A DNA stretch of 64,000 bases, taken from an uncultured delta proteobacterium. Lineage in GTDB: Bacteria > Myxococcota > Myxococcia > Myxococcales > Myxococcaceae. The position numbers and the translations under genes were made by a program. This document shows, in pieces, positions 8,746 through 36,234 of the stretch (position 1 is the stretch's first letter; every line of letters starts with the position of its first letter). The stretch covers positions 64,001 to 128,000 of the forward strand of contig CAVYSY010000022.1 of the NCBI GenBank assembly GCA_963771175.1. The letters run 5' to 3'. The notes beneath the pieces are model-generated. The model made no database searches. It was not told the origin of the DNA and worked only from the letters and a program-made list of their open reading frames with translations.

Positions 8746-8817
8746 ACGTTCCAGGTGCGCCGGGGTGGGGGAGGGACGCGCGAACGGGCCCTCACCCCGG
8801 CCCCGAGCGAGGGCTGC

Positions 8818-9604
8818 TCACAGCCCCGACAGGAAGCTGTCGAGCACCGCGTTGAACTTCTCCGGCTGCTCCTGGTTGGGCAGGTGGGCCGCGTCCGGAA
8901 TCACCTCCAGCCGCGCTCCGGTGATGAGGTCCGCCATCTGCTTCGCCTTCTCCAGCGGCGTCACCGGATCCTTCTCGCCCACCACCACCAGCGCGGGCCC
9001 GGCGTAGCGCGCGAGGATGTCCTTGCTGTCCGGCCGTAGCGCCATGCCCCGCTGCGCCGCGGCGATCCCCGCCGGAGTCGCCGTCCGCATCAGCGCCGCC
9101 ACCTCGCGCCCCACCTCCGAGTCCGGCCCCGCCGCCACCACCTTCGGCAGCAGCGCCCGCACCGCGGACTCGGGCCCCTCCCGCCAGCGCCTCCTGGGCC
9201 GAGGCCTCCCGCCGCGCCCGTCCCGCCTCGTCGTCCGCCGTGGCCTGCGTGTCCACCAGCACCAGCCCCCGCACGCGCCCCGCGTCCTCCCGCAGCAGCG
9301 CCATGGTGGCGTACCCGCCCATGGACACCCCGCCCACCACCGCCGACTCCACGTTCAGCGCGTCCAGCAGCGCCAGCGCGTCCCGGGCGATGCGCGACAT
9401 CTCCGTGGCACCCTCCTCGCCCAGCCCGCTCCGACCGAAGCCCCGGATGTCCGGGATGATGAAGCGGTAGCGCCCCGACAGCGCCTTCACCTGCTTCTCG
9501 TAGGCGTCCCCGTTCAGCGGAAACGCGTGGAACAGCAGCACCGGCAGCCCTCGACCCTCGTCGCGGTAGTGCAGGGGAACGCCATCGACGGTGATGGTGA
9601 GCAT
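8818..9604 (-). CDS. Alpha/beta hydrolase (one frameshift near 9175)
   Basis: LLFHAFPLNG, PDIRGFGRS, GVSMGG; C-terminal frame GEKDPVTP…AAHLPNQEQP. Confidence 0.9.
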
Positions 9605-9621
9605 GGGCTCCTCCAGGAGTT

Positions 9622-10566
9622 TCAGATCCACTGCTTTCGCCGGAACCAGAACATCAGTGCCACCGGCAGTCCGAATACCGAGAACATCATCAGCCAGAAG
9701 AACTCTCTGCGGCCCAGCAGCTCGAAGTTCTGTCCGAAGAAGCCCGTGATGAAGGACAGGGGCAGGAAGATGGTGGCGAAGATGGTGAGCTGCTTGGTGA
9801 TGTCGTTCGTCCGGTTGGCCATCATGGACAGGTAGCCATCCATCACGTTGCCCAACAGGTCGCGCCCCGAGTCGATCTGCTCGTACAGCCGCACCAGGTG
9901 GTCATACACGTCGCGGAAGTACAGCGCCGTGCGCTCCTGCACGTTGGGGATGCCCCTCCGGGAGAGGAAGCCCAGCACGTCCCGCTGGGGCGACAGCACC
10001 CGCCGCAGCTCCACCAGCGCCCGCTTCATGGCGAAGATGCGCTGCAGGTACTCCGACTTCGGATTCGCGAAGATGGCCGATTCCAGGTCCTCCAACTCAT
10101 CGTTGAAGTGATCGAGGACGGGGAAGTTCCGGTCCACCAGCGCGTCCGCCAGCAGGTACAGCAGGAAGTCCACCCCGCGCCCCATCGTCACCCGCGGCTC
10201 GTCCGGCACCCGCTTCCTCACCGCCTCCAGTCCTTCGAAGGGCAGCTCGTGGACCGAGATGAGCCAGTTCGGCCCCAGGAAGAAGTGGTGCTCGTGCAGT
10301 GTCAGGTCGCACACGTCCTGATCGTTGGACGTGAAACCCTGGAGCACGATGAACTGGTGGTTCGGGTACTCCTCCAGCTTGGGCCGCTGATCCAGGTGCA
10401 GGCTGTCCTCGATGGCCAGCCGGTGCAGTTCGTAGCGCTCCCCGAGCTGCTTCATCTCCTCCTCCGTGGGGTGGAGGACGTCGATCCACTTGGGGCCGGG
10501 CTGGTCGAGCAGCTCCTCGCCACCGGAGAGGAGTTTGTCTTCATTAAGGATCAGAACCTGGATCAT
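9622..10566 (-). CDS. corA: CorA family Mg/Co transporter
   Basis: QRPKLEEY, YFRDVYDHL, LTIFATIFLPLSFITGFFGQNF (GxN variant of GMN) plus second TM helix. Confidence 0.9.
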   Translation of the reverse strand: MIQVLILNEDKLLSGGEELLDQPGPKWIDVLHPTEEEMKQLGERYELHRLAIEDSLHLDQRPKLEEYPNHQFIVLQGFTSNDQDVCDLTLHEHHFFLGPNWLISVHELPFEGLEAVRKRVPDEPRVTMGRGVDFLLYLLADALVDRNFPVLDHFNDELEDLESAIFANPKSEYLQRIFAMKRALVELRRVLSPQRDVLGFLSRRGIPNVQERTALYFRDVYDHLVRLYEQIDSGRDLLGNVMDGYLSMMANRTNDITKQLTIFATIFLPLSFITGFFGQNFELLGRREFFWLMMFSVFGLPVALMFWFRRKQWI

Positions 10567-10668: not shown

Positions 10669-11835
10669 GTGTCCGACGCTACTCCTCCACTCGCCCTTTC
10701 CCCCAGGCTCGAAGAGCTCCTTCAATCCCTGGCCGATCGCGCTTTCGGCGAGCGCCTGCGACAGGTGTACACCGCCGCGGGACAGGCCACCCTCCGGCTG
10801 AGCGACCTCGATCTGTTGAAGTACGAGAGCGCCAGCGTGGACGACAGCCCGGACCTGTCGCTCTGGGAGGAGATGGCCCCCGTCATCCGCGACACGGTGA
10901 TGGACGTCAACGTGCTCCTCAACGTCATCCGCGAGCAGTTCGTGGTGAAGGCGTCGAGTGTGTCGGGCGGCGCCGGGGCCCCCCTGGCCGCCACCGTGGA
11001 TGCGCGGCGGGCCAAGGACGCGTCCGAGCTCCTCCAGGGGTGGATGCAGCAGCTCGCCCAGGGCGTCACCCAGCTCGGCGAGGTGATGCGCAACCCCGCA
11101 GTCGTGTCGGACCGGTGGATGCTGCTGTCGGAGATCCAGCGGCTGCGCGAGCGCTTCCGCGAGCAGATCGGCAACCTCGTCTTCGAGTCCGCCAGTGCCT
11201 TCGGGCCGGTGACGCGGCAGCAGGTGGTGCCCGGCCACGAGGCGGAGGTGAAGGCGGCGGTGATGGTGCGGGCCATCGTGGCGGACCTGTCGCGCATCAT
11301 CGAGGCGCGGCTGAACAAGGTGCGCGAGGCCGAGCCCGAGGACGTGCAGTGGAACTCGCAGCAGTTCCAGACGGAGTTGGACGCGTTCGGCCGCACCGCC
11401 GCCTACAAGCATCTGCGTGCCCAGGACAAGCGGCAGATCATCGAGGTTCGCGGTCGGGTAGGGCGGCTGGCCATCCAGGACAATCCCAGCAAGCAGGACG
11501 TGCTGGCCGTGGTGGAGGAGCTGCACGCCTTCGTGAGCTCGCTCGCCAAGGAGAACCAGCATCAGGTGCTCATCACCCATGATCGCGAGGTGTGGGCGGG
11601 CTGCGGGGTTCGGTTGGAGCGGGCCCTGGGGCTGCTGGGCTCGGACCCGGTGACGGCGGCGCGGGGCCTGGCCGAGGCGGCCGCCAGCGCCCAGTCCCTC
11701 TACGGTCGCGACGCCCGACTCGATGCCTTCCTACGCAAGGCGCGCAAGCAGCAGCTCACCCAGCTCTCCGGCCCCGAGCTGCGCTCCTCCCTCGAGCTCC
11801 TCCAGTCGCTGCTGGCCGGACTCGACATGATGTGA
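10669..11835 (+). CDS. Conserved hypothetical helical protein
   Basis: Strong GC3 bias from GTG at 10669; all-helical; no recognised motif. Confidence 0.75.
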   Translation: MSDATPPLALSPRLEELLQSLADRAFGERLRQVYTAAGQATLRLSDLDLLKYESASVDDSPDLSLWEEMAPVIRDTVMDVNVLLNVIREQFVVKASSVSGGAGAPLAATVDARRAKDASELLQGWMQQLAQGVTQLGEVMRNPAVVSDRWMLLSEIQRLRERFREQIGNLVFESASAFGPVTRQQVVPGHEAEVKAAVMVRAIVADLSRIIEARLNKVREAEPEDVQWNSQQFQTELDAFGRTAAYKHLRAQDKRQIIEVRGRVGRLAIQDNPSKQDVLAVVEELHAFVSSLAKENQHQVLITHDREVWAGCGVRLERALGLLGSDPVTAARGLAEAAASAQSLYGRDARLDAFLRKARKQQLTQLSGPELRSSLELLQSLLAGLDMM

Positions 11836-11836
11836 G

Positions 11837-14125
11837 TCACCGTCCCGGCGGGTTCCGGGCCGCGCGCCGGGTGGGACTCCGACGCGCCCCTCCGCCCGGC
11901 AGGAGGACCTGCCTGGCCTGGGGTGAGTCGCCCCCCAGGTCCAGATCGCGGAGCCACATCGCCGGGAGGAAGTCCGGGTCGTTGTAGAGGGCCAGCAACT
12001 CCTTGGGCTCCACCGGACCGAGCCGGCTGGTCGCGAGCCTCGTCCCGCCGCCCTCCTTCCAGGTGCTTTCCCAGAGCAGGGAGAGGACGAGCGCGCCCCG
12101 CGCCATGCAATCGCACGTCCGCTCCCCCAGCACCTCCCACATGTGCGGGATGCGCCGGCGCCCGGACTCGGCGTTGTAGGCCTCGATGATTTCCAGGGGC
12201 GGGAGCGTGTCGATCGTGGTCCCCATGAGCTGGACGACGGCATCCGCCGCCGCCGCTCCGCCCCGCACCGTCCGCGTGACGCGCTTTCCCTTCACGCGCG
12301 CGTTCACGCCTTCGATCAGCTCCGCCGCCCGCTGGTCCAGCATTCGCGTCTCGTAGACCGAGTGGACGTCCTCCTCTTCGGGATGGCCGGGCCGTCCATG
12401 GTGCAGGAACGAGACGTGGAGGGGCTGACACGCATCCCCCACGTAGTGGGCGAGGATGCCGGCGGCACACACGAACTCGGACACCTGTGTGTTCTGGAGG
12501 AAGCCGACCATCGCCTCGTAGATCTGCCAGACGCGGAACGGCAGCGCGCCCCGGCTGCTGTTCGCCTTTACCCCGATGCTCTCGTAGAACTCGCCCCAGA
12601 CCTGGGGAGTGCGGCTGGAGCGATCGGTCCGCCACACGTCGAGCAGGGTCCTTCCCTCGAACGGGCCCGTTCCCGGCTGGTCCATGTCGGCGAAGTGGTT
12701 GGCCGCGTCGCGCTTCCGGGTGGTGCGCCACACCAGGTCCGCCACGTCCGCGAGCGCGACGAAGTTCTGGGTGTCGTTGCCGGGCAGCTCGCCGTTGGCG
12801 ATGGCCTCATCACTGACCGCGATGCGATCCGCGTTGGCCTTGAGCAGGCGGGAGAGCTTCGCGTTCGAGGCGAGCCCGCAGGCCGTGATGCCCACTTTGT
12901 AGTGGCCCACCTTGCCCCAGTACTCGCTGAGCCCGATGTCCCAGTCCCGGACGAGCTCGATGTCCAGCGTGCGGCAGATGGAGCTCAGGCTGCTGGCGAG
13001 CGCGAACGAGTAGACCTCTCCGCCGCCGGGAGTCATCAAATTGTGGCCACCCCACTGCAGGGCGATGGGCCGCCATTGCCGGGCCCGGGCGCGGGTCGGC
13101 GCCTCGTCCCCGGCGCCCGACTTCGGCTCGAAGACCCAGACGGTGCCCGAGTCTCCCGGCCGGGTGGGCAGGACCTCCTGCCCCTCTCGCGCGCCGATCA
13201 ACAGGTCGGCCACGTAGTCGAAGCCCCCCAGGGACTGGTAGCGGTAGAAGAGCCCGTGGATCTCCCCCTCGAGCGTCCCCGAGGCGGCGCCGAAGGCACG
13301 CACGTGGCAGCCGATGAGATCCAGCGAGAGGGTGTCGCTGTTGAGGTCCACGAGGGGACCGAGCTCGCCCACGCCGAACACCTGGGCCGTCCAGCCCCAC
13401 ACGTCCTCGAGCCGGACGAGGCCCGCGTCGAGGTTGGAGTAGGTGCGGCTCCCGGGCAAGCCCGGGTACGCCTCCGCGAAGGGGAGCTTGCCCACCTGGC
13501 GCGCATCGCTGGTGCCCACCCGTTGGCGCTCGCCGCGGACGAGCGTGTAGACCTCGCGACCCTGCTCGCCCACGACGTGCCGGTTGGTGAGGGCATAGAC
13601 GGTGTCGCCATCCGTGACGAGACAGCCGAAGGAGCCGACGTGCGCGCGCCCCTGGACGTCCGTGAGCGCCGGGTAGCCTCCGCCGACCAGTTCGGTGGGG
13701 AAGGTGAGCTGTTGCAGGGGGGGCGGGGCCTGCTCCTGTCGCTCGGCGAGCATGACGCAGGTGGGTACGACCCGCCCGTCCGGCAGGTAGAGCAGGGGGG
13801 GCACGAGCTGCTCGGGATTCCGGGCGATGTCCTCCGGCGTCATCCAGTGGTCCACGAACACCAGCACGCATGGCCAGGACCAGCGACGGACCACCGTGTT
13901 GCCGAGCGTCTTGGGCGTCGAGCTCCTCCGCCCGGGCGTGGCATAGGGGTTCTCCGCGTTCTCGTCCTCGCGGCGGATCCGGTAGCGCCCGATGGCCGTC
14001 GCCACCACGGTGTCCAGGTGGGCGAGGTGCACGTGATACGCCTCGCGTGCCTCCAGCAAATCCTTGATCGACAGCGAGCTGAAGTCCCTCGTCGTCGGCA
14101 GCCCGTTCTTCGCCATGGCATCCAC
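11837..14125 (-). CDS. Trypsin-like (Nal1-type) serine protease fused to S1/P1 nuclease / Zn-phospholipase C domain
   Basis: Protease triad TNRH183, NLD233AG, GDS326G; then W403GKVGH, NHFADMD, HYVGDACQPLH, VHSVYE; no signal peptide. Confidence 0.8.
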   Translation of the reverse strand: MDAMAKNGLPTTRDFSSLSIKDLLEAREAYHVHLAHLDTVVATAIGRYRIRREDENAENPYATPGRRSSTPKTLGNTVVRRWSWPCVLVFVDHWMTPEDIARNPEQLVPPLLYLPDGRVVPTCVMLAERQEQAPPPLQQLTFPTELVGGGYPALTDVQGRAHVGSFGCLVTDGDTVYALTNRHVVGEQGREVYTLVRGERQRVGTSDARQVGKLPFAEAYPGLPGSRTYSNLDAGLVRLEDVWGWTAQVFGVGELGPLVDLNSDTLSLDLIGCHVRAFGAASGTLEGEIHGLFYRYQSLGGFDYVADLLIGAREGQEVLPTRPGDSGTVWVFEPKSGAGDEAPTRARARQWRPIALQWGGHNLMTPGGGEVYSFALASSLSSICRTLDIELVRDWDIGLSEYWGKVGHYKVGITACGLASNAKLSRLLKANADRIAVSDEAIANGELPGNDTQNFVALADVADLVWRTTRKRDAANHFADMDQPGTGPFEGRTLLDVWRTDRSSRTPQVWGEFYESIGVKANSSRGALPFRVWQIYEAMVGFLQNTQVSEFVCAAGILAHYVGDACQPLHVSFLHHGRPGHPEEEDVHSVYETRMLDQRAAELIEGVNARVKGKRVTRTVRGGAAAADAVVQLMGTTIDTLPPLEIIEAYNAESGRRRIPHMWEVLGERTCDCMARGALVLSLLWESTWKEGGGTRLATSRLGPVEPKELLALYNDPDFLPAMWLRDLDLGGDSPQARQVLLPGGGARRSPTRRAARNPPGR

Positions 14126-20997: not shown

Positions 20998-22950
20998 ATG
21001 AACAATCACTATCGCATGACCGTGCTCCAGGGGACCGTCAGTTCCGTGGAGCCACAGCAGCTCCGGTGCTCGCTTCACCTGCGGAGCGGGGACACCGTGA
21101 CGCTTCACTTCAGCACCGAGACGACGTTCTCGGTGCTCACGAATCTGGATGGGGTCTCCCAGGATCGGGTGCCGGAGGTGAAGGGGTTCGAGGGCAGCGA
21201 GCTGGCCCGCAAGGTGGCCCGCTACCTGCGGCCCCAGGACACCGTCTTCGTCCGGGGCATCCTGACCGAGAACGCCGGAGAGACGCGCTTCGACGTACGG
21301 GCCGTGTGGCTGATGCACTCCGAGCCACGGCGGTTCCTCTTCGAGGACAAGCAGTGGTGCCTGACCCAGATCCGGCTCATGGCCGATTCCTGGCTGGACG
21401 CCCTTTTCGGTGACGCGCGCAGCTACACCGAGGACGACATCTCCCGGAACTACCGGACGAACCTCAACCTGTACGGCGGGCCCACGGACGACAACCTCCA
21501 GGCCATGCCCACGCTCGCCCGCCTCATCTACGGGCTGTCCTCGGCCTACATGCTCACGGGAGATCACCGTTACAGGAAGGCGGCCGCGGCGGCCATCCAG
21601 TTCCAGCGCTCCTCCTTCCGCATCTTCAGCCACGACGGGCAGTACTGCCTGTGGGCCTACGGTCGCCGCAAGAAGGTGAATGGCTCCGTGACGAGCTTCG
21701 CCTCGGAGAGCGCCGACGACTTCAACGCCATCGCCCTCTACGAGCAGATCTACGCCCTGGCGGGGCTCACGCAGTACTTCCGCTGCACGGGGGATCCGGC
21801 CGCGCTGGAGGACGTCCGCCACACGGTGGCCATGTTCAACGCGCTCTTCCTGGACCTCAAGCGCGTCAACCCCGACTTCCCGGGGCTGGATGGCTACTTC
21901 AGCCACCTGGATCCGGCCAACCTGCGGCCGGACTCGCCCGCGCTCGGGACCCGCCAGCTCGAGAAGAACTGGAACTCGATCGGCGACCACATCCCGGCCT
22001 ACCTGGTCAATCTGATCCTCGCCCTCGATCCATTGCCGCAGGGTGCCGATGAGGGGATCGCCGACTTCCTCCGGGTCTGCAAGGAGATGCTCGATCGGAC
22101 CGCCCGGCTGATCATCGAGAAGTTCCCGGATCCGGAGTCCGTGTACGTGAACGAGCGCTTCCACGCGGACTGGACGCCCAACCACGAGTGGGGCTGGCAG
22201 CAGAACCGGGCCGTGGTGGGCCACAACTACAAGATCGCCTGGCAACTGCCGCGCATCGCCAGTTTCTGGTTCTCCGAGGGGCGTCATGACGAAGCCCAGC
22301 GTGCGCTCCAGGTGGCCGAGCGGCTGGCCAGGGCCATGATCACCCATGGCGCCGATCTGGTCCGCGGGGGCTGCTTCGATGCCGTCGAGCGCCACCCCTC
22401 CAATGGTCAGTCGATCGAGTTCGCCTGGGGCTGCACCAAGGACTTCTGGCAGCAGGAGCAGGCCATCCTCGCCAACCTGATCCTCTACGGGCACACGCGG
22501 GATCCCGAGTTCCTGGACCAGGCCCGCGCCGCGGCGGCGTTCTGGAACCTGTTCTTCCTGGACCGGGATCGCCAGGGCATCTTCTTCCGCACCACGGAGG
22601 ATGGGCTGCCCATCGTCGAGGGGAGCTACGCCAACAAGGGAGGCTACGCCATCGCCGGCTACCACTCCTTCGAGCTGAACTTCCTGGCCCACATCTACAC
22701 GCGGGCCTTCGTCGCGCCAGCGGGGACCGAGGACGCCAGCTTCTGCCTGTACTTCTACCCCTTGCGCCAGTGCGGGCTGCGCTCCATCAACGTGGCGCCG
22801 GACTTCTTCAAGCCCGGCTCCATCGAGATCGCCAGCATCACCGTCAATGGCAGGCGCCGATCGGATGTCGATCCCAAGCGGTTCCAGATCCCTCTCCAGA
22901 CCGGTGATTTCGGCTCCGAGATCATCGTCCAGTTCCGGAGGAAGTCATGA
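20998..22950 (+). CDS. AGE family epimerase/isomerase (N-acylglucosamine 2-epimerase-like) with extra N- and C-terminal domains
   Basis: ARLIYGLSSAY, KNWNSIGDH, VNERFHADW, VVGHNYKIAW, KDFWQQEQA, GYHSFEL: His residues typical of the (alpha/alpha)6 AGE fold. Confidence 0.8.
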   Translation: MNNHYRMTVLQGTVSSVEPQQLRCSLHLRSGDTVTLHFSTETTFSVLTNLDGVSQDRVPEVKGFEGSELARKVARYLRPQDTVFVRGILTENAGETRFDVRAVWLMHSEPRRFLFEDKQWCLTQIRLMADSWLDALFGDARSYTEDDISRNYRTNLNLYGGPTDDNLQAMPTLARLIYGLSSAYMLTGDHRYRKAAAAAIQFQRSSFRIFSHDGQYCLWAYGRRKKVNGSVTSFASESADDFNAIALYEQIYALAGLTQYFRCTGDPAALEDVRHTVAMFNALFLDLKRVNPDFPGLDGYFSHLDPANLRPDSPALGTRQLEKNWNSIGDHIPAYLVNLILALDPLPQGADEGIADFLRVCKEMLDRTARLIIEKFPDPESVYVNERFHADWTPNHEWGWQQNRAVVGHNYKIAWQLPRIASFWFSEGRHDEAQRALQVAERLARAMITHGADLVRGGCFDAVERHPSNGQSIEFAWGCTKDFWQQEQAILANLILYGHTRDPEFLDQARAAAAFWNLFFLDRDRQGIFFRTTEDGLPIVEGSYANKGGYAIAGYHSFELNFLAHIYTRAFVAPAGTEDASFCLYFYPLRQCGLRSINVAPDFFKPGSIEIASITVNGRRRSDVDPKRFQIPLQTGDFGSEIIVQFRRKS

Positions 22951-24505
22951 GTCGTCTGCCCTTGCAGGGGAAGAAGATCGCCGTCCTCGTCGAGAGTCAG
23001 TTCATCCCCGTGGAGCTCTCCGAGTACCGGAAGCGGTTCGAGGAGGATGGGGCCACCGTCCATTTCCTGGCCAATCTGTATGGGAATTCCTCGCTGACCC
23101 TCGTGAGCGAGGTCGAGGAGCCCGGCCAGACGCCCGAGCTGCTGACGGTCGACCTCGACGTCCGCCAGGTGAAGCCGGAGGACTACGCGGCCGTCATCAT
23201 GGCGGCCAACTACACGAGCGTCCGGCTCCGTCACTTCATTCCGCCCTCCGGGCCCGATGGCAAGCCGGTGCCGATCACCCCGGAGATGGTCCGCTCGTCG
23301 CCGGCGGTCCAGTTCTTCGGCCGTGCCATGCGCGACCCGAGAATCATCAAGGGGGCGCTGTGCCACGGGCTCTGGCTGCTGACGCCCACCCCGGAGCTGC
23401 TCGCGGGGCGCAGGGTCATCTGCCACGAGGTCGTGCTGGCCGACATCACCAACGCCGGGGGCCTCTACACGCCGGATCCCTCGGGCGTGGTGGTGGATGA
23501 GGATCTGGTGACGGGGCGCTCGTACCACGAGGTCTCGGTGCTCATCGATCGCATCAAGGAGCTCATCGTGGCCGGGGAGGAGCAGGCGGCCTCGCTCCCC
23601 ACGCCTGTCAGCCCGACGGTGCCGGAAGCGCCGCGAGGGCAGGGGAGCAAGCGGCGCATCCTGATCGTCCTCTCCAGCTACGGCTACTGGAGCGAGGAGC
23701 TCGTCGGTCCACTCGAGGTGTTCGACGCCATGGGCTACGAGGTCGAGTTCGCCACGCCCGACGGCCGGCGTCCGAGGCCCCTGCCTCCGAGCCTGAATCC
23801 GGACTACATCGATCCGCCCCTGGGCCGCTCGGTGACCACACCGGAGATGGCTCGCAAGGGGCGCGAGCTCGTCCCGCTCCGGGCGCCTCGACTCCCCGCT
23901 GAACCTCTCGGCGCTGCTGCCCGAGCGGCCGTACTTCAGCCAGCCCGTGCTGGTGCGTGCGCTCGAGGCCTACCACCGTGAGCGTCGAGCGGGCCCTGCG
24001 CGACTTCGAGCGGTTCGACGCGCTGCTGCTGGTGGGCGGCAGCGGACCCATCGTCGACATGGCCAACAACCAGCGCCTGCACGACCTGATCCTCGGCTTC
24101 CTGCGGCTGGGCAAGCCGATCGCCGCGGAGTGCTACGGCGTCACCTGCCTGGCCTTCGCGCGGGACATGGAGGACCGGCGCAGCATCCTGAGGAACAAGC
24201 ACGTCACCGGCCACTGCCTGGAGTACGACTACAAGGACGGCACCGGCTTCCTGGGCACCGACTTCAACATGGGCCCGCCGCCGTACCCGCTCGAGTACAT
24301 CCTCCGCGACGCGACCGCGCCGGAGGGCCAGTACCACGGCAACTTCGGGAAGGAGACGTCGGTCATCGTCGACTACCCGTTCATCACCGGCCGTTCCACC
24401 CCGGACTCCATCCTGACCGGCCAGAAGCTCGTCGAGGTGCTCGAGAACGGACTGCGCCAGTGGGGCTGGAACGGCGCCAACGACGGACAGGGGAGCCACA
24501 TATGA
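22947..24505 (+). CDS. Tandem DJ-1/PfpI plus type-1 glutamine amidotransferase-like fusion (2 frameshifts at 23870-23985)
   Basis: Domain 1 KKIAVLVESQFIPVE…GALCHG…LVTGRS; domain 2 ILIVLSSYGYWSEEL…LVGGSGP…AAECYGV…FITGRS. Confidence 0.8.
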
Positions 24506-31586: not shown

Positions 31587-32897
31587 TCAGCCGAGCGCGC
31601 CGAGCTGGGCCAGCAGGCCCAGATCGTTTTCGTTTACCCAGATTTCGGCGATCTTGCCGCCCGAGAAGACGAAGATGTCGACTCCCTGATCCCTCACCCT
31701 CCGGTACGTGGGAGGCATCCCGAGGAACGGGCCCGCGTGCGTGCCCTCGACGTACCAGCGAGCGGCGGCCCTGTTGCCCTCCGCCACCTGGCGCTCCACG
31801 GTGAACTGGATGTCTGGGAGGCCGGTGCGCAGACCCGTCACGAAGGCACGCATCCCCTCCCTGCCACGGATCGGCTCGGGCAGCGTCGGGATGTGGAACG
31901 AGAACCGCTCGGCGATGAGCTCGTCGATGACCTCCAGCCGGCCCTGGCTCATCAGCTCGTCGAAGTACCGGCCAATGAGCTGGAGGTTCTCCTCCCGGGT
32001 CGTCCCGGGCGGGGGCACAGGGTTCCCCATCGCGGGCAGGCCACCGAGCTGGGTGAGCAGCCCCAACGTGTCCTCATTGATGCGCGCCTCGACGAACCTG
32101 CCATCCTCGATGCGCAGCCAACTCATGCCGTCGATCACGAACGAGCGCTCCCGCGCGGGGATGTCGCCCCGGAGGGTCTCGAGGGGCGTGCCGGTGTGGG
32201 TGCCGCGGGCGGTCCAGTGGGCGACCACCGTGTCTCCCTGGGCCACCAGGTGCTCGAGGGAGAAGGTCAGGTCGGGGAACGCATCCCGGAGCATCTTGAC
32301 GAGCCCCTTGAACTCCTGGCCGCGGTAGGGCTCGGAGTGGGTGGGGTTGGTGAACTCGAACTTCTCGGAGAAGTAGTGGTCGACGAACGAGAGGTCCCCT
32401 TCGCTCATCAGCTCGGAGTAGTAGCGGCGGGTGAGCTGCTTGTTCCGTTCCTCGACGGCGCGGCGCGCCTCGGCCTCGCGGAGGGAGGTGAGCAGAGGAG
32501 TCCCGTACTCGCAGATGCGGACGCGCTTGAACCTGCCGTCTTCATCGAGCTCCACGAACCACAGCTCCGCGCCACGGACCGTCTCGTGGGTCGCCGGGAC
32601 GCCCAGGAACTCCCGGGCATGGGTGCCCTCGTAGAGGAGGTCGAGCGAGGCGGTCGTGTCGTCCGTCACCAGATGGGCGATGTCGACCCTGACGTCGGGA
32701 AAGGCCTGGGTCCATTCATGAACGGCATCGTGGAAGAGCTGGTAGCCCTGGCTTCTGCCCAGCTCGGCCGGAACGCCCGGCGCCTCCAGCACGAGGTCCG
32801 GAGCGCAGAGCCCGGTCATGATGGAGCCGATGTTCTTCTGGTTCAGGCCGATCTCGACGAACTTCTTCGCCGCGCTGATGTTCTTCTCCAAGGACAT
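31587..32897 (-). CDS. Protein with three tandem SnoaL-like ester cyclase domains
   Basis: Three repeats of xENx…AFPD…GTH…G.P.T…DGR/GGK in 436 aa. Confidence 0.9.
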   Translation of the reverse strand: MSLEKNISAAKKFVEIGLNQKNIGSIMTGLCAPDLVLEAPGVPAELGRSQGYQLFHDAVHEWTQAFPDVRVDIAHLVTDDTTASLDLLYEGTHAREFLGVPATHETVRGAELWFVELDEDGRFKRVRICEYGTPLLTSLREAEARRAVEERNKQLTRRYYSELMSEGDLSFVDHYFSEKFEFTNPTHSEPYRGQEFKGLVKMLRDAFPDLTFSLEHLVAQGDTVVAHWTARGTHTGTPLETLRGDIPARERSFVIDGMSWLRIEDGRFVEARINEDTLGLLTQLGGLPAMGNPVPPPGTTREENLQLIGRYFDELMSQGRLEVIDELIAERFSFHIPTLPEPIRGREGMRAFVTGLRTGLPDIQFTVERQVAEGNRAAARWYVEGTHAGPFLGMPPTYRRVRDQGVDIFVFSGGKIAEIWVNENDLGLLAQLGALG

Positions 32898-32898
32898 G

Positions 32899-33717
32899 TC
32901 AGGTCTCCTCTTCCTGGATGAATGATTCGATTGCCGTCGCGAGCGCCTCCGGCACCTCCAATCCCGGGAAGTGGCTGGTGGCCTCCAGCTTCCTCACCTG
33001 GAACCAGGGGTGCTCGGTGGCGAAGGCTTCCTGGTCGGCCACCATGGCCGGGCTGCTCGTCTGGGTGTACAGGTGCAGGATCGGAGGGGCGGGCCGCATC
33101 CCGGCCATGGCCTCGAGTGGGCTCTTCCACCTGGCGTAGCCGGCTCCAATCTCGCGGCCCGAGCGCATCCACATCGCGGCGCCGTAGGCATTCATTTCCT
33201 CACGCACGAGGCGGATGACCTCGGGGTGGTCCACGCCCTTCAGCCAGAGGTCGAAGAGCTGAGCCCGGGCCTGCTTCCAGGTCGCGGCGCCGGCGAGGGC
33301 CTCCACCAGGGCCAGATAGGGCGCGGGGGGCTCCACGAGCATCCAGTCGGTCAGCACGATCCTGGGGACGCGGGAGCCCAGCCTTCGCCGCAGCTCGAGC
33401 GCCACCCACCCGGCGTGGGAGCAGGAGACGGGGATGACCTGCCGCACGCCACTGGCCGCGATGACGGCGAGGGCGTCTTCCACCAACTCCGCGGCTCCGA
33501 AGTCTCTCGCCGGAGCTTCCGACTGGCCGTGGCCACGCCAGTCCAGCGTGAGCACCCGCCGGTGGGCGGCGCTCCGCAGGGGGGTCTCACCAAAGGCCGA
33601 GCGGCTGGCACACCAGGGAGGCAGGAACAGCAAGGCCGGTTCGCCCTGTCCATGGCTGCCATAGCGGATGCGCACCCCTCCCGGTGCAAGCGCTTCCAAT
33701 TCCTCTTTCCTCATCAT
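32899..33717 (-). CDS. Alpha/beta-hydrolase-fold protein related to cofactor-independent dioxygenases Hod/Qdo/AqdC
   Basis: LPPWC, DWRGHG, PVSCSHAGW, LTDWM, LFDLWL, WMRSGREI, HPWF, SHFP; these parallel the Hod motifs as I recall them. Confidence 0.75.
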   Translation of the reverse strand: MMRKEELEALAPGGVRIRYGSHGQGEPALLFLPPWCASRSAFGETPLRSAAHRRVLTLDWRGHGQSEAPARDFGAAELVEDALAVIAASGVRQVIPVSCSHAGWVALELRRRLGSRVPRIVLTDWMLVEPPAPYLALVEALAGAATWKQARAQLFDLWLKGVDHPEVIRLVREEMNAYGAAMWMRSGREIGAGYARWKSPLEAMAGMRPAPPILHLYTQTSSPAMVADQEAFATEHPWFQVRKLEATSHFPGLEVPEALATAIESFIQEEET

Positions 33718-33735
33718 GTCCTCCCTCATTTCCTC

Positions 33736-35322
33736 TCATCCTTGCTGGAGCAGGCTTTGCGCGACGATGAGCCCCGACCCACCGCCCAGCCCGAGTCCTG
33801 GATGGGTGGCCGCGCCAATCATGTAGAGCTGGGGAATGGCGGTGCGGTGTCCCTGCTGCGCGGCCATGGGCCGGAGCAGGTAGCTCTGGGCGAGGGCGTG
33901 CGAGCCACTGAACGGGTCTCCGTACTTCCAGTTCGGGTTGTAGCGGTGCAGGTCCAGGGGACTGACCACCGCGTGCGCCAGGATGGCGCCCTCCAGGTTG
34001 GGGATGTGCCGGCAGGCGGTGGCGATCATGCGATCGGCGAAGCGCTGCTTCAGATCTTCCGTCCAGGTGCCATCGCCGATGTCGATGGTGCCGGCGGCAT
34101 CGCCCACCACCTGAAAGGGGACGTCCAGTCCCTGAAGCACCATCACGGCCTTGCCCGCGGGGGCGCGGGAAGGATCGAGCAGGCTCGGTGTCCCCACGCC
34201 GATCACCGGCTCGGCGGGGAGCAGGCGGCGGGTGGTCTCGTTGTAGTTGCGCGACACGCCGTCCATGCCGCGGGTGAGGTGGGTATAGACGACCTTGTCG
34301 AGCCGCTCGTCGTGCCAGCGAGGCGGCTCCTTCAGCGCCAGGTGGACGAAGAAGACGGAGTGGCCGTAGCGGAACCGGGTGGCCTGCTGCCGGACGCGTG
34401 GCGGGACTTCGCTGACGTCCGCCAGCAACTCCTGGTGGAGTTGGTCCGGATTGGTGGTGGCAATCACCGCCCGCCGGGCGCGGTACTCCTCGCCCGTCGC
34501 CGTCCGCACTCCCACCGCCTTGCCTCCCTCCACGAGGATGCGGTGGACCGGCGTGTTCGTCTGGACCGTGCCGCCCTGGTCGCGGATCAGCTGCACGAAG
34601 GCCCGGGCGAGCATCTCGGCCCCGCCCTCCGCCACGAGCTGCCCCGCCGACTGGAGCGCCAGGAGGGTGAGCTTCATCGAGAGCGCACCGTTCGCATCCT
34701 CCGGCCCGCGCCCCGCGTGCAGGATCCACGGAGCGAGCAGCCCTCGCCATGCCTCGGAGGAGAAGGTGGTCTCCAGCAAATCTCTCGCGCTCAGCAGGAA
34801 CTCGCCAGCGAACGGAGACAGACTCCTGCCATCCTCGGCGAGCATCAGCCGCCGGAACAGCTCCGCGGCGCGTGGGGAGTCCAGCTCCGAGCCCAGCAAC
34901 TCGAAGACCGCTTCCGCATGGGGGCCAAACCCTTGCAGGAGCTGCGCCCAGGCCGCGCCGTCACCCGGAGCGAGACGATCGGCTTCGGCCATGTTGGCCT
35001 CGAGGCTCGTGGAGAGCACCGCCGCCTGGCCATCTGGCATCGAGACCGCGGTGGGCAGCGAGGTGGGGATGAGCTTCAGACCCCGCTCGGCGAGCGCACT
35101 TCCGAAAACGGCATTGGCCTGGGAGAGTGCGAAGAGGATGAAGTACCCGGCATAGAGATCATGGTGGAAGCCCGGCAGGGTCAGTTCCTCGGTGCGAACC
35201 CCTCCCCCGGGACGCGCGTTCTTCTCCAGCAGCAACACGCTCCACCCGGCGCGAGTCAGGTAGGCAGCGCAGACGAGCGCATTGGGTCCACTGCCAATGA
35301 TGATTGCATCATGGGTTTGCAT
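33736..35322 (-). CDS. Phytoene desaturase-like FAD-dependent oxidoreductase
   Basis: IIIGSGPNAL…LEKNARPGGG, PGFHHD, GGAEML, LYMIGAATHPGLGLGGGSG. Confidence 0.88.
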   Translation of the reverse strand: MQTHDAIIIGSGPNALVCAAYLTRAGWSVLLLEKNARPGGGVRTEELTLPGFHHDLYAGYFILFALSQANAVFGSALAERGLKLIPTSLPTAVSMPDGQAAVLSTSLEANMAEADRLAPGDGAAWAQLLQGFGPHAEAVFELLGSELDSPRAAELFRRLMLAEDGRSLSPFAGEFLLSARDLLETTFSSEAWRGLLAPWILHAGRGPEDANGALSMKLTLLALQSAGQLVAEGGAEMLARAFVQLIRDQGGTVQTNTPVHRILVEGGKAVGVRTATGEEYRARRAVIATTNPDQLHQELLADVSEVPPRVRQQATRFRYGHSVFFVHLALKEPPRWHDERLDKVVYTHLTRGMDGVSRNYNETTRRLLPAEPVIGVGTPSLLDPSRAPAGKAVMVLQGLDVPFQVVGDAAGTIDIGDGTWTEDLKQRFADRMIATACRHIPNLEGAILAHAVVSPLDLHRYNPNWKYGDPFSGSHALAQSYLLRPMAAQQGHRTAIPQLYMIGAATHPGLGLGGGSGLIVAQSLLQQG

Positions 35323-35364
35323 TGATTCCTCCCAGGGAGGGGTTCACGTCCGGGGTGGAGGGGC

Positions 35365-35781
35365 TCAGGGCTTGAGCGCTTCCGCGATGTTCGTGAACCC
35401 AGCCCAGGTGCGCTTGATCTTGCCGTCGACGATGTGGGAGTAGTGGATGCCAGTGATTTCCGAATAGCGCCCGGTGGGGGCGAAGCCGGCGAAGGTGCCC
35501 TGGTGCGTTCCCGTCATCAGCATCTTGGTCGCCACCACGTCGCCCTCGGCCACCATCTCCTGGACGATGTATTTGATGTCGGGGAAGGCCTTGCGGAAGG
35601 AGATCACCCTCTGGCGGAAGGCTTCGCGCCCGCTCTGGACCGGAGCACCCCCCGCGAGCGGCGGGGCGTCGAACTCGTAGTCCTCGTGGTAGAGCTCGTC
35701 GATCATCTCCAGACGGTGCTGGGTCAGCAGGACACCGAAGAGCGTCCGGATGAGCTGCTTGTTTTCCTCTGGGGTCGTCAT
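35365..35781 (-). CDS. SnoaL-like ester cyclase
   Basis: EENKQLIR, AFPDI, AEGDVV, TGTHQGTFAGFAPTG. Confidence 0.9.
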   Translation of the reverse strand: MTTPEENKQLIRTLFGVLLTQHRLEMIDELYHEDYEFDAPPLAGGAPVQSGREAFRQRVISFRKAFPDIKYIVQEMVAEGDVVATKMLMTGTHQGTFAGFAPTGRYSEITGIHYSHIVDGKIKRTWAGFTNIAEALKP

Positions 35782-35814
35782 GCGGCTTTCTCCTTGGGGG
35801 TTGTTCGACTGTCT

Positions 35815-36234
35815 TCAGGATTGGAGCTGCGCCAGCAGGGGCGTACCGTACGAGCAGAAGCGGAGACGCCGGATGCGTCCCTCGGACAGCTCGGCGAAGC
35901 AGAGCTGGGTCGAGGTGATTCTGTTGCCGGTGGGGGTGAGACCGGCGAACGGCCCCGTGTGGGTGCCATGGAGCACGTAGTCGACCGACACGTTCTCCCC
36001 ATCGCCCAACAGGTAATGGCTCTCGTAGTTCAGGTCGGGGAAGGCCGCGTGGAACGCGGTCACGCCTCGTTTGAATGCGTCCAGGCTGTTCTGTCGGGCC
36101 ACCTCGCTCGGGATCACCGGCGACTCGATGGAGAAGTCAGTCGTGCAGAGTGAATCGAGGACCTCCACCCTTCCGCCGTTCATCACCTCCGCGAAGAGCC
36201 GGCGGATGACATCCTTGTTGTCTTCGAGATTCAT
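35815..36234 (-). CDS. SnoaL-like ester cyclase
   Basis: EDNKDVIRR, AFPDL, HGTHTGPFAGLTPTG; its ICEYGTPLL-like tail (FCSYGTPLL) matches domain 1 of the triple-SnoaL protein. Confidence 0.9.
   Translation of the reverse strand: MNLEDNKDVIRRLFAEVMNGGRVEVLDSLCTTDFSIESPVIPSEVARQNSLDAFKRGVTAFHAAFPDLNYESHYLLGDGENVSVDYVLHGTHTGPFAGLTPTGNRITSTQLCFAELSEGRIRRLRFCSYGTPLLAQLQS

What the first reader, a model, noticed from the sequence alone, without database searches (positions are those of the whole stretch)
11837..14125. Cytoplasmic protease-S1/P1 nuclease fusion with a masked catalytic N-terminus: candidate self-activating nuclease
Seen: one intact 762-aa ORF with no signal peptide or TM segment. It has a complete trypsin-type triad (H183 in TNRH, D233 in NLDAG, S326 in GDSG) followed by a full S1/P1-type domain (W403-G-K-V-G-H408, NHFADMD, HYVGDACQPLH, VHSVYE). 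Established: in P1/S1 nucleases and Zn-phospholipase C, Trp1 binds zinc through its free alpha-amino group, so the enzyme needs processing right before that Trp, normally by signal or propeptide removal. Inference: cleavage at Y402|W403 by the fused protease would unmask a toxic intracellular nuclease or phospholipase. That would be a one-gene protease-gated effector for anti-phage abortive infection or programmed lysis, with the ~150 residues before the protease as a possible sensor or oligomerisation part.
Basis: partly seen in the sequence, partly recalled or inferred. Interest (0 to 1): 0.85.

Follow-up and report, generated by a model that had tools for sequence, protein, structure and literature searches.

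The report
Protease fused to masked zinc phosphodiesterase
A soil bacterium encodes one cytoplasmic protein that joins a protease related to the rice NAL1 protease to a zinc nuclease/phospholipase-type enzyme whose key first residue is buried at the joint, and comparison of relatives suggests the protease cuts that joint to switch the enzyme on.

Summary
The gene is real and belongs to a large family of full-length fusions spread patchily across many phyla.

The N-terminal half is a homologue of plant NARROW LEAF 1 (NAL1), a cage-forming serine protease. The C-terminal half is a divergent member of the phospholipase C / P1 nuclease fold, with all nine zinc ligands conserved. Its Trp403 aligns with the mature N-terminal Trp of solved S1/P1 nucleases.

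New evidence for self-cleavage comes from covariation. The residue before the Trp varies among 300 relatives. Of 762 positions, the one that tracks it best is residue 360, in the protease's substrate-binding strand. This is suggestive, but it does not reach significance after phylogenetic correction (p about 0.06).

Several findings count against a defence role:
- No partner gene is conserved.
- There is no defence-island context.
- The gene is absent from phages and rare on plasmids.

One PADLOC model does describe a distant relative with both domains.

Cleavage, substrate and trigger are all untested. I read it as a self-processing zymogen of unknown biological role.

The parts
11837..14125 (-). 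Whole ORF, 762 aa from GTG 14125. The likely true start is ATG 14116, giving 759 aa.
13721..14083 (-). N-terminal module, residues 15-135. It has a helix at 20-35, then four strands and one helix at 40-126, and corresponds to the end of the N-terminal domain plus the ATP-binding domain of rice NAL1.
   Evidence: A profile match to NAL1 chains starts at query residue 80, which pairs with NAL1 residue 129 in the 582-residue chain. Foldseek aligns about 400 columns. Secondary structure is, and the NAL1 domain description from PMC12012508 passages. The mapping is an inference.
12962..13693 (-). Chymotrypsin-fold serine protease domain, residues 145-388.
   Evidence: The next-best folds after NAL1 are alpha-lytic protease and Streptomyces griseus protease B.
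13577..13579 (-). Catalytic His183.
   Evidence: 200 of 201 full-length relatives
13427..13429 (-). Catalytic Asp233.
   Evidence: 200 of 201
13148..13150 (-). Catalytic Ser326, in G-D-S-G.
   Evidence: 201 of 201
13163..13165 (-). Thr321, five residues before the catalytic Ser. By motif equivalence it sits in the wall of the S1 pocket.
   Evidence: It changes in 8 of 10 independent pairs that differ in P1 class. phi is 0.60 and 0.53.
13046..13057 (-). Q357-W-G-G360, the substrate-binding strand (the S-W-G-x position of chymotrypsin-fold proteases). Gly360 is the position that co-varies with P1.
12920..12964 (-). Conserved 15-residue linker, residues 388-402, ending in E401-Y402. Proposed to be substrate residues P15-P1.
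   Evidence: In 121 rows: D394 102, W395 103, G398 120, E401 112, Y402 121. Modelled as coil with pLDDT 84 and 78.
12917..12922 (-). Proposed scissile bond Tyr402|Trp403.
   Evidence: Trp in 299 of 300 relatives. P1 is Y 222, S 29, T 25, F 9, R 7, V 5, I 3. Cleavage is inferred, not shown.
11951..12919 (-). All-alpha phospholipase C / P1 nuclease-fold domain, residues 403-725.
   Evidence: AF2 pLDDT 92, pTM 0.89. Foldseek ranks 1-36 are all S1/P1 nucleases or zinc phospholipases C. Profile hits to ENDO2, S1, SmNuc1 and P1. Pfam matches S1-P1 in 36 of 38 members and Zn_dep_PLPC in 26 of 38.
12350..12904 (-). The span holding the other eight predicted zinc ligands: H408, D463, H477, H560, D564, H570, H588, E592.
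   Evidence: Of 201 relatives: H408 201, D463 201, H477 201, H560 200, D564 199, H570 199, H588 200, E592 186 E plus 14 D. H560/D564/H570/H588/E592 are aligned to ENDO2 motifs. I recalled the ligand roles from the P1 nuclease literature.
11840..11938 (-). Low-confidence, Arg/Pro/Gly-rich C-terminal tail, residues 730-762. It is not conserved.
   Evidence: pLDDT below 50 at 734-737 and 743-762. The alignment consensus ends before it.

Best explanation
The gene encodes a cytoplasmic, self-processing zymogen.

The N-terminal ~390 residues are a NAL1-type serine protease: an oligomerisation/ATP-binding module plus a chymotrypsin-fold domain. The C-terminal ~325 residues are a trinuclear-zinc phosphodiesterase of the phospholipase C / P1 nuclease fold. 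In this enzyme class the first residue, Trp, must have a free alpha-amino group to complete the zinc site.

A cytoplasmic protein cannot obtain an N-terminal Trp from translation or from a signal peptidase. I propose that the conserved linker (residues 388-402) lies in the protease's own cleft, or a neighbouring protomer's cleft, with residue 402 in the S1 pocket. The protease then cuts Tyr402|Trp403, and the freed Trp403 closes the zinc site.

Shown here:
- both folds
- the triad
- all zinc ligands
- the alignment of Trp403 with the mature residue 1 of a solved nuclease
- covariation between residue 402 and the S1 region

Inferred:
- the cleavage itself, and whether it is cis or trans
- dependence on NAL1-like assembly
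- activity afterwards

Unknown:
- the substrate (DNA/RNA, nucleotides or phospholipid)
- whether cutting is constitutive maturation or a regulated, lethal switch

I lean slightly towards assembly-controlled cutting, because rice NAL1 is active only as a hexamer.
For: 1. The fusion is the rule. The best 120 hits and are almost all 700-830 aa. In one search, 359 clusters match at E<=1e-30.

2. Both active sites are kept: Ser326 201/201, His183 200/201, Asp233 200/201, and eight zinc ligands at 199-201/201 (the last is E in 186 and D in 14).

3. Trp403 is kept in 299 of 300 relatives. It aligns to residue 1 of mature Arabidopsis ENDO2 in a profile search and to Pfam S1-P1 profile position 1.

4. 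The premise holds in passages I read. S1 nuclease matures to start at its Trp, and the zinc cluster involves the N-terminal Trp (PMC5201275). In Listeria PC-PLC one added residue before W1 turns activity off, and the proenzyme is activated by the Mpl protease (PMC10576769).

5. The linker is conserved rather than free.

6. Covariation.
- In a scan of all 762 query positions against P1 class (aromatic or not), position 360 ranks first apart from 402 itself.
- phi is 0.905 in 201 sequences, with cells 175/2/2/22, and 0.915 in 300 sequences, with cells 227/4/5/64. The next unrelated position reaches 0.63-0.65.
- Positions 357, 321 and 323, in the two motifs that wall the S1 pocket, are also near the top.
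- The pairings are specific: Y/F with G, S with Q (25 of 29), T with R/Q/A/E, V with A.
- On a FastTree, P1 class changes 10 times. In 7 well-supported independent pairs, residue 360 goes the same way in 5.5, the opposite way in 0, and does not differ in 1.5.
- In my own 10 pairs, positions 360 and 321 differ in 8 each, against a mean of 4.05 for all positions.

7. The junction is modelled less confidently in the full-length protein (pLDDT 78 for residues 401-410) than in the domain alone (96 for the same residues).
Against: - No cleavage has been observed.
- The tools gave no model coordinates, so I could not check the distance from Ser326 to the 402-403 bond.
- Assigning residues 360 and 321 to the S1 pocket rests on motif equivalence with chymotrypsin-fold proteases that I recalled. 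I did not measure it.
- After phylogenetic correction the covariation is not significant. The sign test has a median p of 0.0625 (range 0.031-0.125), from few independent events, on a FastTree only.
- Two of my 10 pairs (P1 = Arg) keep Gly360.
- Position 249, which I cannot place in the pocket, changes in 9 of 10 pairs.
- P1 is not uniform: 78 of 300 relatives lack Tyr.
- Six stand-alone relatives of the C-terminal domain have only a 9-12 residue leader before the Trp and no protease. One represents a cluster of 249 sequences and one is from a Leifsonia genome. Either another protease matures them, or the internal Trp suffices.
- The C-terminal domain falls below Pfam's curated cut-offs.
Confidence: 0.6

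Rival explanations
1. The cut is held back until a trigger such as phage infection or stress. It then unleashes a toxic intracellular nuclease or phospholipase. This would be a one-gene abortive-infection or programmed-death effector.
For: - An unrestrained non-specific nuclease or phospholipase C in the cytoplasm should be harmful (inference).
- Distribution is patchy: 264 confirmed stretches among 185,579 species genomes, spread over many phyla. Two divergent types occur within Myxococcota (Archangium, and Hyalangium at 52%).
- Copies lie in pieces in 2 of 5 plasmid records.
- PADLOC model PDLC03017 'trypsin-like' matches both halves: N half E 1.3e-18, C half E 7.1e-9; whole protein E 4.3e-29. 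A distant relative with both domains is therefore listed among known or candidate defence proteins.
- Protease-activated pronucleases are now an experimentally shown defence principle (bioRxiv 10.1101/2025.07.28.667249; outline and first part of Results read).
- Rice NAL1 is active only as a hexamer (PMC12012508 passages), which offers a possible gate.
Against: - No partner or immunity gene is conserved. The largest cross-locus neighbour cluster occurs in 9 of 79 loci, at scattered positions.
- Among 120 neighbours (two genes on each side) in 30 loci, Pfam shows ordinary metabolic, transport and regulatory genes.
- 10 of 119 neighbours hit some PADLOC model at E<=1e-6, mostly through generic domains. 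These are UvrD helicase beside RecR/YbaB, AAA, an ABC ATPase, a sigma-54 activator, HEAT, Toprim, beta-galactosidase and subtilase. Only 1 of 119 is a full-length dedicated effector, a Pycsar-type TIR in L066.
- There is no match in 50,697 phage records, and 5 matches in 72,556 plasmid records, all large replicons.
- The locus is syntenic in five Archangium genomes.
- Identity of 50-60% across phyla is unusually high for a defence gene.
- No sensor domain was found.
- I could not find which PADLOC system the model belongs to.
Confidence: 0.3
2. Constitutive self-maturation. The protease cuts once, as soon as the protein folds or assembles. It serves only to give a cytoplasmic enzyme the N-terminal Trp that secreted relatives get from signal peptidase. 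The mature enzyme then has a narrow, non-lethal substrate, such as nucleotides, cyclic dinucleotides, a specific RNA or a lipid head group.
For: - The chromosomal context is ordinary, with no immunity gene.
- The gene is stably inherited within Archangium.
- The whole length is under strong purifying conservation.
- A substrate tethered in cis is normally cut at once (general enzymology, recalled).
- A solved bacterial relative of the fold, SmNuc1, has an entry described as holding GMP produced from c-di-GMP (entry title), so narrow nucleotide substrates occur in this fold.
Against: - Only about 0.14% of species genomes carry it, which is odd for a housekeeping role.
- Keeping a full NAL1-type oligomerisation module for a single cut seems costly.
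- Disrupted copies occur.
Confidence: 0.3
3. No self-cleavage. This would be a fusion of two enzymes that act together, or the C-terminal domain is a regulatory or substrate-recruiting module for the protease. The Trp would work, or be idle, as an internal residue. Conservation of the junction would then be structural.
For: - Stand-alone C-domain relatives have short leaders and no fused protease.
- P1 residues include Ser, Thr, Val, Ile and Arg.
- AF2 folds the full-length chain confidently, with pLDDT 86.4.
- Het-C-type relatives of this fold are described with a conserved active-site set of four His and three acidic residues that does not list an N-terminal Trp (PMC3482391 passages).
Against: - Trp is kept in 299 of 300 relatives, exactly at the domain boundary.
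- It aligns to mature residue 1 of solved nucleases.
- Covariation of residue 402 with the S1 region would be unexplained, unless the residue sits in the pocket as an uncleaved pseudo-substrate beside an intact triad.
- One residue before W1 inactivates Listeria PC-PLC (PMC10576769).
Confidence: 0.2

Closest known systems
Rice NARROW LEAF 1 (NAL1) serine protease (PDB 7y77, 8hau, 8pme, 8pmg, 8pn2 and others)
   Same: Profile match at E 1.3e-10 over query residues 80-332. Foldseek E 2.8e-20, with TM-score 0.67-0.79 normalised to the NAL1 chain over about 400 columns. Same order of parts: an N-terminal module with four strands and a helix, then a chymotrypsin-fold domain with a His/Asp/Ser triad.
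   Different: About 20% identity. NAL1 has no phosphodiesterase domain and cuts other proteins (FZP at two sites; PMC12012508 passages). The bacterial protein lacks most of NAL1's first 88 residues. Hexamer formation and ATP binding were not established here.
S1/P1 nucleases (Aspergillus S1, Penicillium P1, Arabidopsis ENDO2/AtBFN2, tomato TBN1, Stenotrophomonas SmNuc1)
   Same: All-alpha fold. W-G-x-x-G-H start, H-x-x-x-D-x-x-Q-P-L-H and H-x-x-x-[DE] motifs. Pfam S1-P1 is the best C-terminal match.
   Different: The known enzymes are secreted or extracytoplasmic, about 250-270 residues, and start at the Trp after signal removal. This domain is about 325 residues plus a tail, cytoplasmic, and preceded by 402 residues. 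It scores below the Pfam cut-off. Its last ligand is Glu rather than Asp, and its TM-scores are only 0.45-0.60.
Zinc phospholipases C, especially Listeria monocytogenes PC-PLC with its propeptide and the Mpl protease
   Same: Same fold, and the highest TM-score of all hits (0.70 to 8cqm_B). The last ligand is Glu, as I recall for B. cereus PLC. The zymogen logic matches: residues before W1 keep the enzyme off and a protease removes them (PMC10576769).
   Different: PC-PLC is secreted, its propeptide is 26 residues, and the activating protease is a separate metalloprotease. Here the 'propeptide' is a 402-residue serine protease in the same chain. The spacing from Trp to the first His (5 residues) is of the nuclease type.
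Nuclease-protease pairs of Hachiman, AVAST, Lamassu and DRT systems (HamM and protease-HamA; Tuck et al., bioRxiv 10.1101/2025.07.28.667249)
   Same: A trypsin-fold protease turns a pro-nuclease on by specific cuts, and phage defence has been shown experimentally.
   Different: Those nucleases have the metallo-beta-lactamase fold. They are separate genes, are cut at two internal Ile sites that remove blocking insertions, and sit in multi-gene systems with a sensor. Here there is one chain, a different nuclease fold, activation by creating a new N-terminus, and no associated system.
PADLOC-DB model PDLC03017 'trypsin-like'
   Same: It matches both halves of the protein in the same order: N half to profile positions 12-302, C half to 434-592 of 611.
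   Different: The relationship is distant (E 4.3e-29 for the whole protein) and the model is shorter. I did not find the defence system it belongs to. The two papers I opened from search did not name it, and search turned up nothing relevant.
Cis-cleaving chymotrypsin-fold proteases such as the alphavirus capsid protease (recalled, no call)
   Same: A protease cuts at its own C-terminal boundary, with its last residue in the S1 pocket.
   Different: There is no sequence relationship. That protease releases a viral structural polyprotein rather than activating an enzyme.

Membership tests
Phospholipase C / P1 nuclease fold superfamily | All-alpha fold of S1/P1 nucleases and zinc phospholipases C | tested here: met
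   AF2 domain model has pLDDT 92.0. Foldseek ranks 1-36 are all members of this fold. Best E is 7.8e-4, and TM-scores to targets are 0.37-0.70.
Phospholipase C / P1 nuclease fold superfamily | Nine ligands of the trinuclear zinc site (Trp1, His, Asp, His, His, Asp, His, His, Asp/Glu) | tested here: met
   W403, H408, D463, H477, H560, D564, H570, H588 and E592 are kept in 199-201 of 201 relatives; the last is E in 186 and D in 14. Five are aligned to ENDO2. I recalled the ligand identities from the P1 nuclease literature.
S1/P1 nuclease family (Pfam PF02265) | Score above the curated Pfam cut-off | tested here: not met
   21.0 and 23.8 bits against a cut-off of 29.5, covering only profile positions 1-130 of 258. 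At E<=0.01, 36 of 38 family members match.
S1/P1 nuclease family (Pfam PF02265) | The mature protein starts at the Trp (free alpha-amino group) | not testable with these tools
   This needs N-terminal sequencing or mass spectrometry. In the gene, the Trp is residue 403.
S1/P1 nuclease family (Pfam PF02265) | Signal peptide or export, as in characterised members | tested here: not met
   No hydrophobic N-terminus in 0 of 301 members. The query's maximum 19-residue hydropathy is 1.2.
S1/P1 nuclease family (Pfam PF02265) | Nuclease or 3'-nucleotidase activity | not testable with these tools
   A biochemical assay is needed.
Zinc-dependent phospholipase C (Pfam PF00882) | Score above the curated Pfam cut-off | tested here: not met
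   15.8 and 17.3 bits against 26.8. 26 of 38 members match at E<=0.01.
NAL1-type serine protease | Sequence and fold similarity to NAL1 across the N-terminal module and the protease domain | tested here: met
   Profile E 1.3e-10. Foldseek E 2.8e-20, TM-score 0.67-0.79.
NAL1-type serine protease | His/Asp/Ser catalytic triad | tested here: met
   200, 200 and 201 of 201.
NAL1-type serine protease | Pfam Nal1_C (PF25819) above the curated cut-off | tested here: not met
   25.7 bits against 26.1 for this protein. Many relatives carry the precomputed PF25819 label.
NAL1-type serine protease | Trimer-of-dimers cage (hexamer) required for activity, and ATP bound in the N-terminal module | not testable with these tools
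   Described for rice NAL1 (PMC12012508 passages). No usable computational result was obtained here.
Protease-activated pronuclease modules of defence systems (Tuck et al. 2025) | Metallo-beta-lactamase-fold nuclease gene next to a protease fused to HamA, Avs1a or LmuA | tested here: not met
   The nuclease-type domain has the PLC/P1 fold. No such neighbours were found in 79 loci or among 119-120 neighbours.
Protease-activated pronuclease modules of defence systems (Tuck et al. 2025) | Protection against phage | not testable with these tools
   A plaque or liquid infection assay is needed.

The most novel reading that the evidence does not exclude
The protein is a complete death switch in one chain. 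Its NAL1-type module reads the cell's state, for example through the nucleotide bound in its ATP-binding domain or through assembly. The assembled cage cuts its own Tyr|Trp junction. Creating an N-terminal Trp then arms a lethal zinc nuclease or phospholipase. Activation by making a new N-terminus, rather than by removing a blocking segment, would be a new principle for bacterial immune or suicide effectors. It would also point to the ancestral job of the protease lineage that gave plants NAL1.
Probability: 0.2. Interest if true: 0.85.

Novelty: new variant of a known kind. Interest (0 to 1): 0.7.

Why it matters
If the cut occurs, this family shows how a cytoplasmic protein can acquire the free N-terminal tryptophan that S1/P1 nucleases and zinc phospholipases C need. 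It would do so by carrying its own dedicated protease. That would be a compact, genetically portable zymogen design, and a candidate one-gene switch for biotechnology.

It also gives the agronomically important rice protease NAL1 a large bacterial sister family with a concrete built-in substrate. That could inform how NAL1 recognises substrates.

The covariation between residue 402 and residue 360 makes the idea directly testable with a few mutants.

I found no paper describing this fusion. No paper in the library holds both 'NAL1' and 'S1-P1'. Searches returned nothing relevant. Subscription journals were not searched.

Tried and rejected
1. Homo-oligomer prediction. Complex prediction with two copies of residues 1-402 and alignment A1 returned 'no answer'. 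It counts neither for nor against assembly.

2. Geometry of the junction. The structure tools return no coordinates, and /data held none. I could not measure how far the 402-403 bond lies from Ser326.

3. Conserved partner gene. An all-against-all comparison of 4044 ORFs within 7 kb of the gene in 79 loci found none. The ORF calling was crude: stop-to-stop with a minimum of 70 aa.

4. Split genes.
- The short hits are mostly contig-end fragments or mis-called starts.
- Only six look like true stand-alone C-domain proteins.
- It therefore stays unchecked whether a separate NAL1-like protease lies beside them.
- The Atlas lists stand-alone bacterial clusters of 300-410 aa in which a share of members carry Nal1_C or NAL1_N. 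These are leads only.

5. NCBIfam gave no match.

6. The full-length profile search against PDB found no S1/P1 entry at E<=1. Only the domain profile did.

7. Identity of PADLOC model PDLC03017. I searched and read passages of two papers. I did not find the system. My guess that it belongs to gasdermin- or retron-associated proteases is recall only, and I dropped it.

9. Preprint supplements were closed. Those of the Tuck et al. preprint might list related protease families.

10. Rows left out:
- Sequences under 650 aa, and the query's own database record P0002, were excluded from the 201- and 300-sequence sets.
- L029 and L049 dropped out of the neighbour set because my gene caller found no target gene there.
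- One 1930-aa neighbour (L004) was included in the Pfam call but not in the PADLOC call.
- Three locus references with stop codons (L010, L035, L045) were dropped from alignment A3.


Full report
**The observation.** The window is about 65-72% G+C. Its closest relatives are in Archangium species at 76-78% protein identity. The ORF at 11837..14125 on the minus strand is 762 codons from a GTG and has GC3 of 0.92. The collection's own record of the protein has 759 residues and starts at the ATG at 14116, which has a G-run 9 nt upstream. No 19-residue window exceeds a hydropathy of 1.2. None of 301 family members has a hydrophobic N-terminus, so the protein is cytoplasmic by sequence.

**The family.** A word-indexed search found 1590 proteins at E<=1e-3 among 8000 scored. 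The best 120 are 697-788 residues long and 51-100% identical over 90-100% of the query. An exhaustive search of representatives at 50% identity found 1380 at E<=1e-3 and 359 at E<=1e-30, mostly full length. Source names are 'hypothetical protein' or 'S1/P1 Nuclease'. In one genome per species, 264 of 276 pattern matches encode a relative. The 79 loci kept come from these groups:
- Myxococcota, Acidobacteriota, Chloroflexota (several Ktedonobacter) and Bacteroidota
- Alpha-, Beta- and Gammaproteobacteria
- Planctomycetota, Gemmatimonadota and Actinomycetota
- Methylomirabilota, Abditibacteriota and one archaeal bin

That is about 0.14% of 185,579 species. It is a lower bound, because only two peptide patterns were scanned.

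**N-terminal half.**
- Pfam gives only a near-threshold Nal1_C match, 25.7 bits against a cut-off of 26.1.
- A profile of 60 relatives matches nine distinct rice NARROW LEAF 1 chains at E 1.3e-10 to 1.8e-9 over query residues 80-332.
- The AF2 model has pLDDT 86.4 and pTM 0.74. Its best structural matches are NAL1, at E 2.8e-20 and TM-score 0.67-0.79 on the NAL1 chain over about 400 columns. Next come alpha-lytic protease and Streptomyces griseus protease B.
- In passages I read (PMC12012508), NAL1 has an N-terminal domain (1-88), an ATP-binding domain of four strands and a curved helix (89-172), and the protease domain (184-458). It forms trimers through the ATP-binding and protease domains, and is active only as a hexameric cage.
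- By the profile register (query 80 pairs with NAL1 129), query residues 40-123 correspond to the ATP-binding domain. The model has exactly four strands and one helix there.
They most likely serve oligomerisation, and possibly nucleotide binding. This is an inference.

**C-terminal half.**
- Residues 403-762 modelled alone give pLDDT 92.0 and pTM 0.89.
- Foldseek ranks 1-36 are all S1/P1 nucleases or zinc phospholipases C. The best E-value is 7.8e-4, to Aspergillus S1. The best TM-score is 0.70, to Listeria PC-PLC.
- A domain profile finds eight distinct PDB sequences at E<=10, all S1/P1 nucleases, led by ENDO2 at 4.3e-4. Trp403 aligns to residue 1 of the mature chain, and the H-x-x-x-D-x-x-Q-P-L-H and H-x-x-x-E motifs align too.
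- At E<=0.01, 36 of 38 members match Pfam S1-P1 and 26 of 38 match Zn_dep_PLPC. Both are below the curated cut-offs for this protein.
- The nine predicted zinc ligands are kept in 199-201 of 201 full-length relatives, with Glu (186) or Asp (14) at the last position.
- The domain is therefore a divergent, probably active member of this fold. The data do not tell a nuclease from a phospholipase.

**The junction.**
- In the 121 closest rows (the query, its own database record and 119 relatives), Y402, W403, G404, G407 and H408 are invariant and E401 is present in 112.
- In 300 full-length sequences, including a second search seeded with divergent members, Trp is present in 299. The residue before it is Y 222, S 29, T 25, F 9, R 7, V 5, I 3.
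- I scanned all 762 query positions for association with aromatic versus non-aromatic P1. Position 360 came first, with phi 0.905 in 201 sequences and 0.915 in 300. The next unrelated position reached 0.63-0.65.
- Position 360 is the second Gly of Q-W-G-G. By secondary structure and motif, this is the S-W-G-x strand that pairs with the substrate in chymotrypsin-fold proteases.
- Positions 357, 321 and 323 also rank high. The last two lie just before G-D-S-G.
- The pairings are specific: Tyr or Phe with Gly, Ser with Gln, Thr with Arg/Gln/Ala/Glu, Val with Ala.
- This is the pattern expected if residue 402 sits in the S1 pocket. A large P1 needs an open pocket, and a small P1 goes with a filled one.

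**Caveats on the covariation.**
- The divergent sequences form few clades. P1 class changes 10 times on a FastTree. There are only 7 well-supported independent pairs: residue 360 goes the same way in 5.5, the opposite way in 0, and shows no difference in 1.5. The median sign-test p is 0.0625.
- In my own 10 pairs, positions 360 and 321 each differ in 8, against a mean of 4.05 over all positions. Position 249, which I cannot explain, differs in 9.
- I infer the pocket assignment from motifs. I did not measure it.

**Why cleavage would matter.** S1 nuclease matures to begin at its Trp, and the zinc cluster involves that N-terminal Trp (PMC5201275 passages). In Listeria PC-PLC one extra residue before W1 abolishes activity, and the proenzyme is activated by a protease (PMC10576769 passages). 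From general knowledge, a cytoplasmic protein cannot expose Trp by methionine removal. An endoproteolytic cut is then the only route, and a fused protease whose specificity site tracks the P1 residue is the obvious agent.

**Context.**
- In the window the gene follows a dicarboxylate symporter gene on the same strand, with a 55-bp gap.
- It converges on a 387-residue gene with no Pfam family whose stop abuts its own.
- Other neighbours are a CorA gene, an apparently frameshifted alpha/beta hydrolase and an M4 metalloprotease.
- This arrangement is shared only with other Archangium loci.
- Across 79 loci, no neighbour family occurs in more than 9.
- Of 120 neighbours in 30 loci, Pfam shows ordinary functions.
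- Of 119 scanned with PADLOC, 10 hit some model, mostly through generic domains. One is a full-length Pycsar-type TIR effector.
- There is no phage match among 50,697 records. There are five plasmid matches among 72,556, all large replicons, two of them in pieces.
- This is not the context of a typical mobile defence gene.
- Against that, PADLOC model PDLC03017 'trypsin-like' matches both halves in order. A distant relative with the same two domains therefore sits in that database, but I could not find which system it belongs to.

**Complications.** Six short proteins look like genuine stand-alone C-terminal domains, with a 9-12 residue leader unlike the linker. One cluster has 249 members and one protein is from a Leifsonia genome. 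They retain the motifs and fall inside the family tree. They either use a separate protease (stand-alone NAL1-like bacterial clusters exist as leads) or do not need a free Trp. I could not fetch their neighbourhoods.

**Comparison with known systems and verdict.** The nearest principles are the Listeria PC-PLC/Mpl zymogen and the nuclease-protease pairs of Hachiman and AVAST (bioRxiv 10.1101/2025.07.28.667249; outline and first part of Results read). This protein differs from both in three ways:
- It is a single chain.
- It pairs a NAL1-type protease with a PLC/P1-fold enzyme.
- It would be activated by creating a new N-terminus.

I found no paper on this fusion. I therefore rate it a new variant of a known kind. 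My confidence is about 0.6 that the junction is cut by the fused protease. I put roughly even odds on a regulated toxic effector versus constitutive maturation of an enzyme with a narrower role.

Noticed in passing
window 8792-9631 (-): An alpha/beta hydrolase reads in two frames. The N-terminal part is in ORF 8795-9631 and the C-terminal part in ORF 8821-9162, and both have Abhydrolase Pfam matches. This is an apparent frameshift near 9160-9200, either a pseudogene or a sequencing error.
   Followed up: partly
window 10672-11835 (+): A 387-residue gene with no Pfam or PADLOC match converges on the studied gene. The two stop codons are one base apart, leaving no room for a terminator. It is conserved only in the Archangium loci (for example L002 12336-13496).
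   Followed up: partly
P0404, P0413, P0436, P0453, P0478, P0479: These are stand-alone relatives of the C-terminal domain, with a 9-12 residue leader before the Trp and no protease domain. One cluster has 249 member sequences, and one protein is from a Leifsonia genome. In one related record (P0256) the start is called at a Met just after the Trp.
   Followed up: partly
PADLOC model PDLC03017, against window 11840-14125 (-): The model named 'trypsin-like' (611 positions) matches both the protease half and the phosphodiesterase half, so it describes a distant fusion of the same kind. I did not find its defence system.
   Followed up: partly
L066 7146-8078 (-): In one acidobacterial locus the second gene upstream is a full-length cyclic-nucleotide-binding TIR effector of the Pycsar type (PADLOC E about 1e-116). 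It is the only dedicated defence gene among 119 neighbours.
   Followed up: no
L020 and L032 (Ktedonobacter sp. SOSP1-85); plasmid hits H2 and H5: One genome carries two copies on different contigs. In two rhizobial megaplasmids the gene lies in 2-4 pieces annotated as separate hypothetical proteins, so these are probably disrupted copies.
   Followed up: no
window 22947-24502 (+) and 57015-59255 (-): Two more genes look split into adjacent ORFs. A DJ-1/ThiJ-like gene spans 22947-23978 and 23957-24502. A PlsB-type glycerol-3-phosphate acyltransferase has its Acyltransferase domain in 58008-59255 and GPAT_C in 57015-57944.
   Followed up: no
window 31590-36234 (-): A run of SnoaL-like cyclase genes (one with three repeats) sits with a flavin amine oxidase and an alpha/beta hydrolase. 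This is possibly a small secondary-metabolite cluster.
   Followed up: no
window 40082-43663 (-): A 1194-residue Ser/Thr protein kinase is fused to an AAA_16 ATPase domain. This is a common myxobacterial signalling architecture.
   Followed up: no
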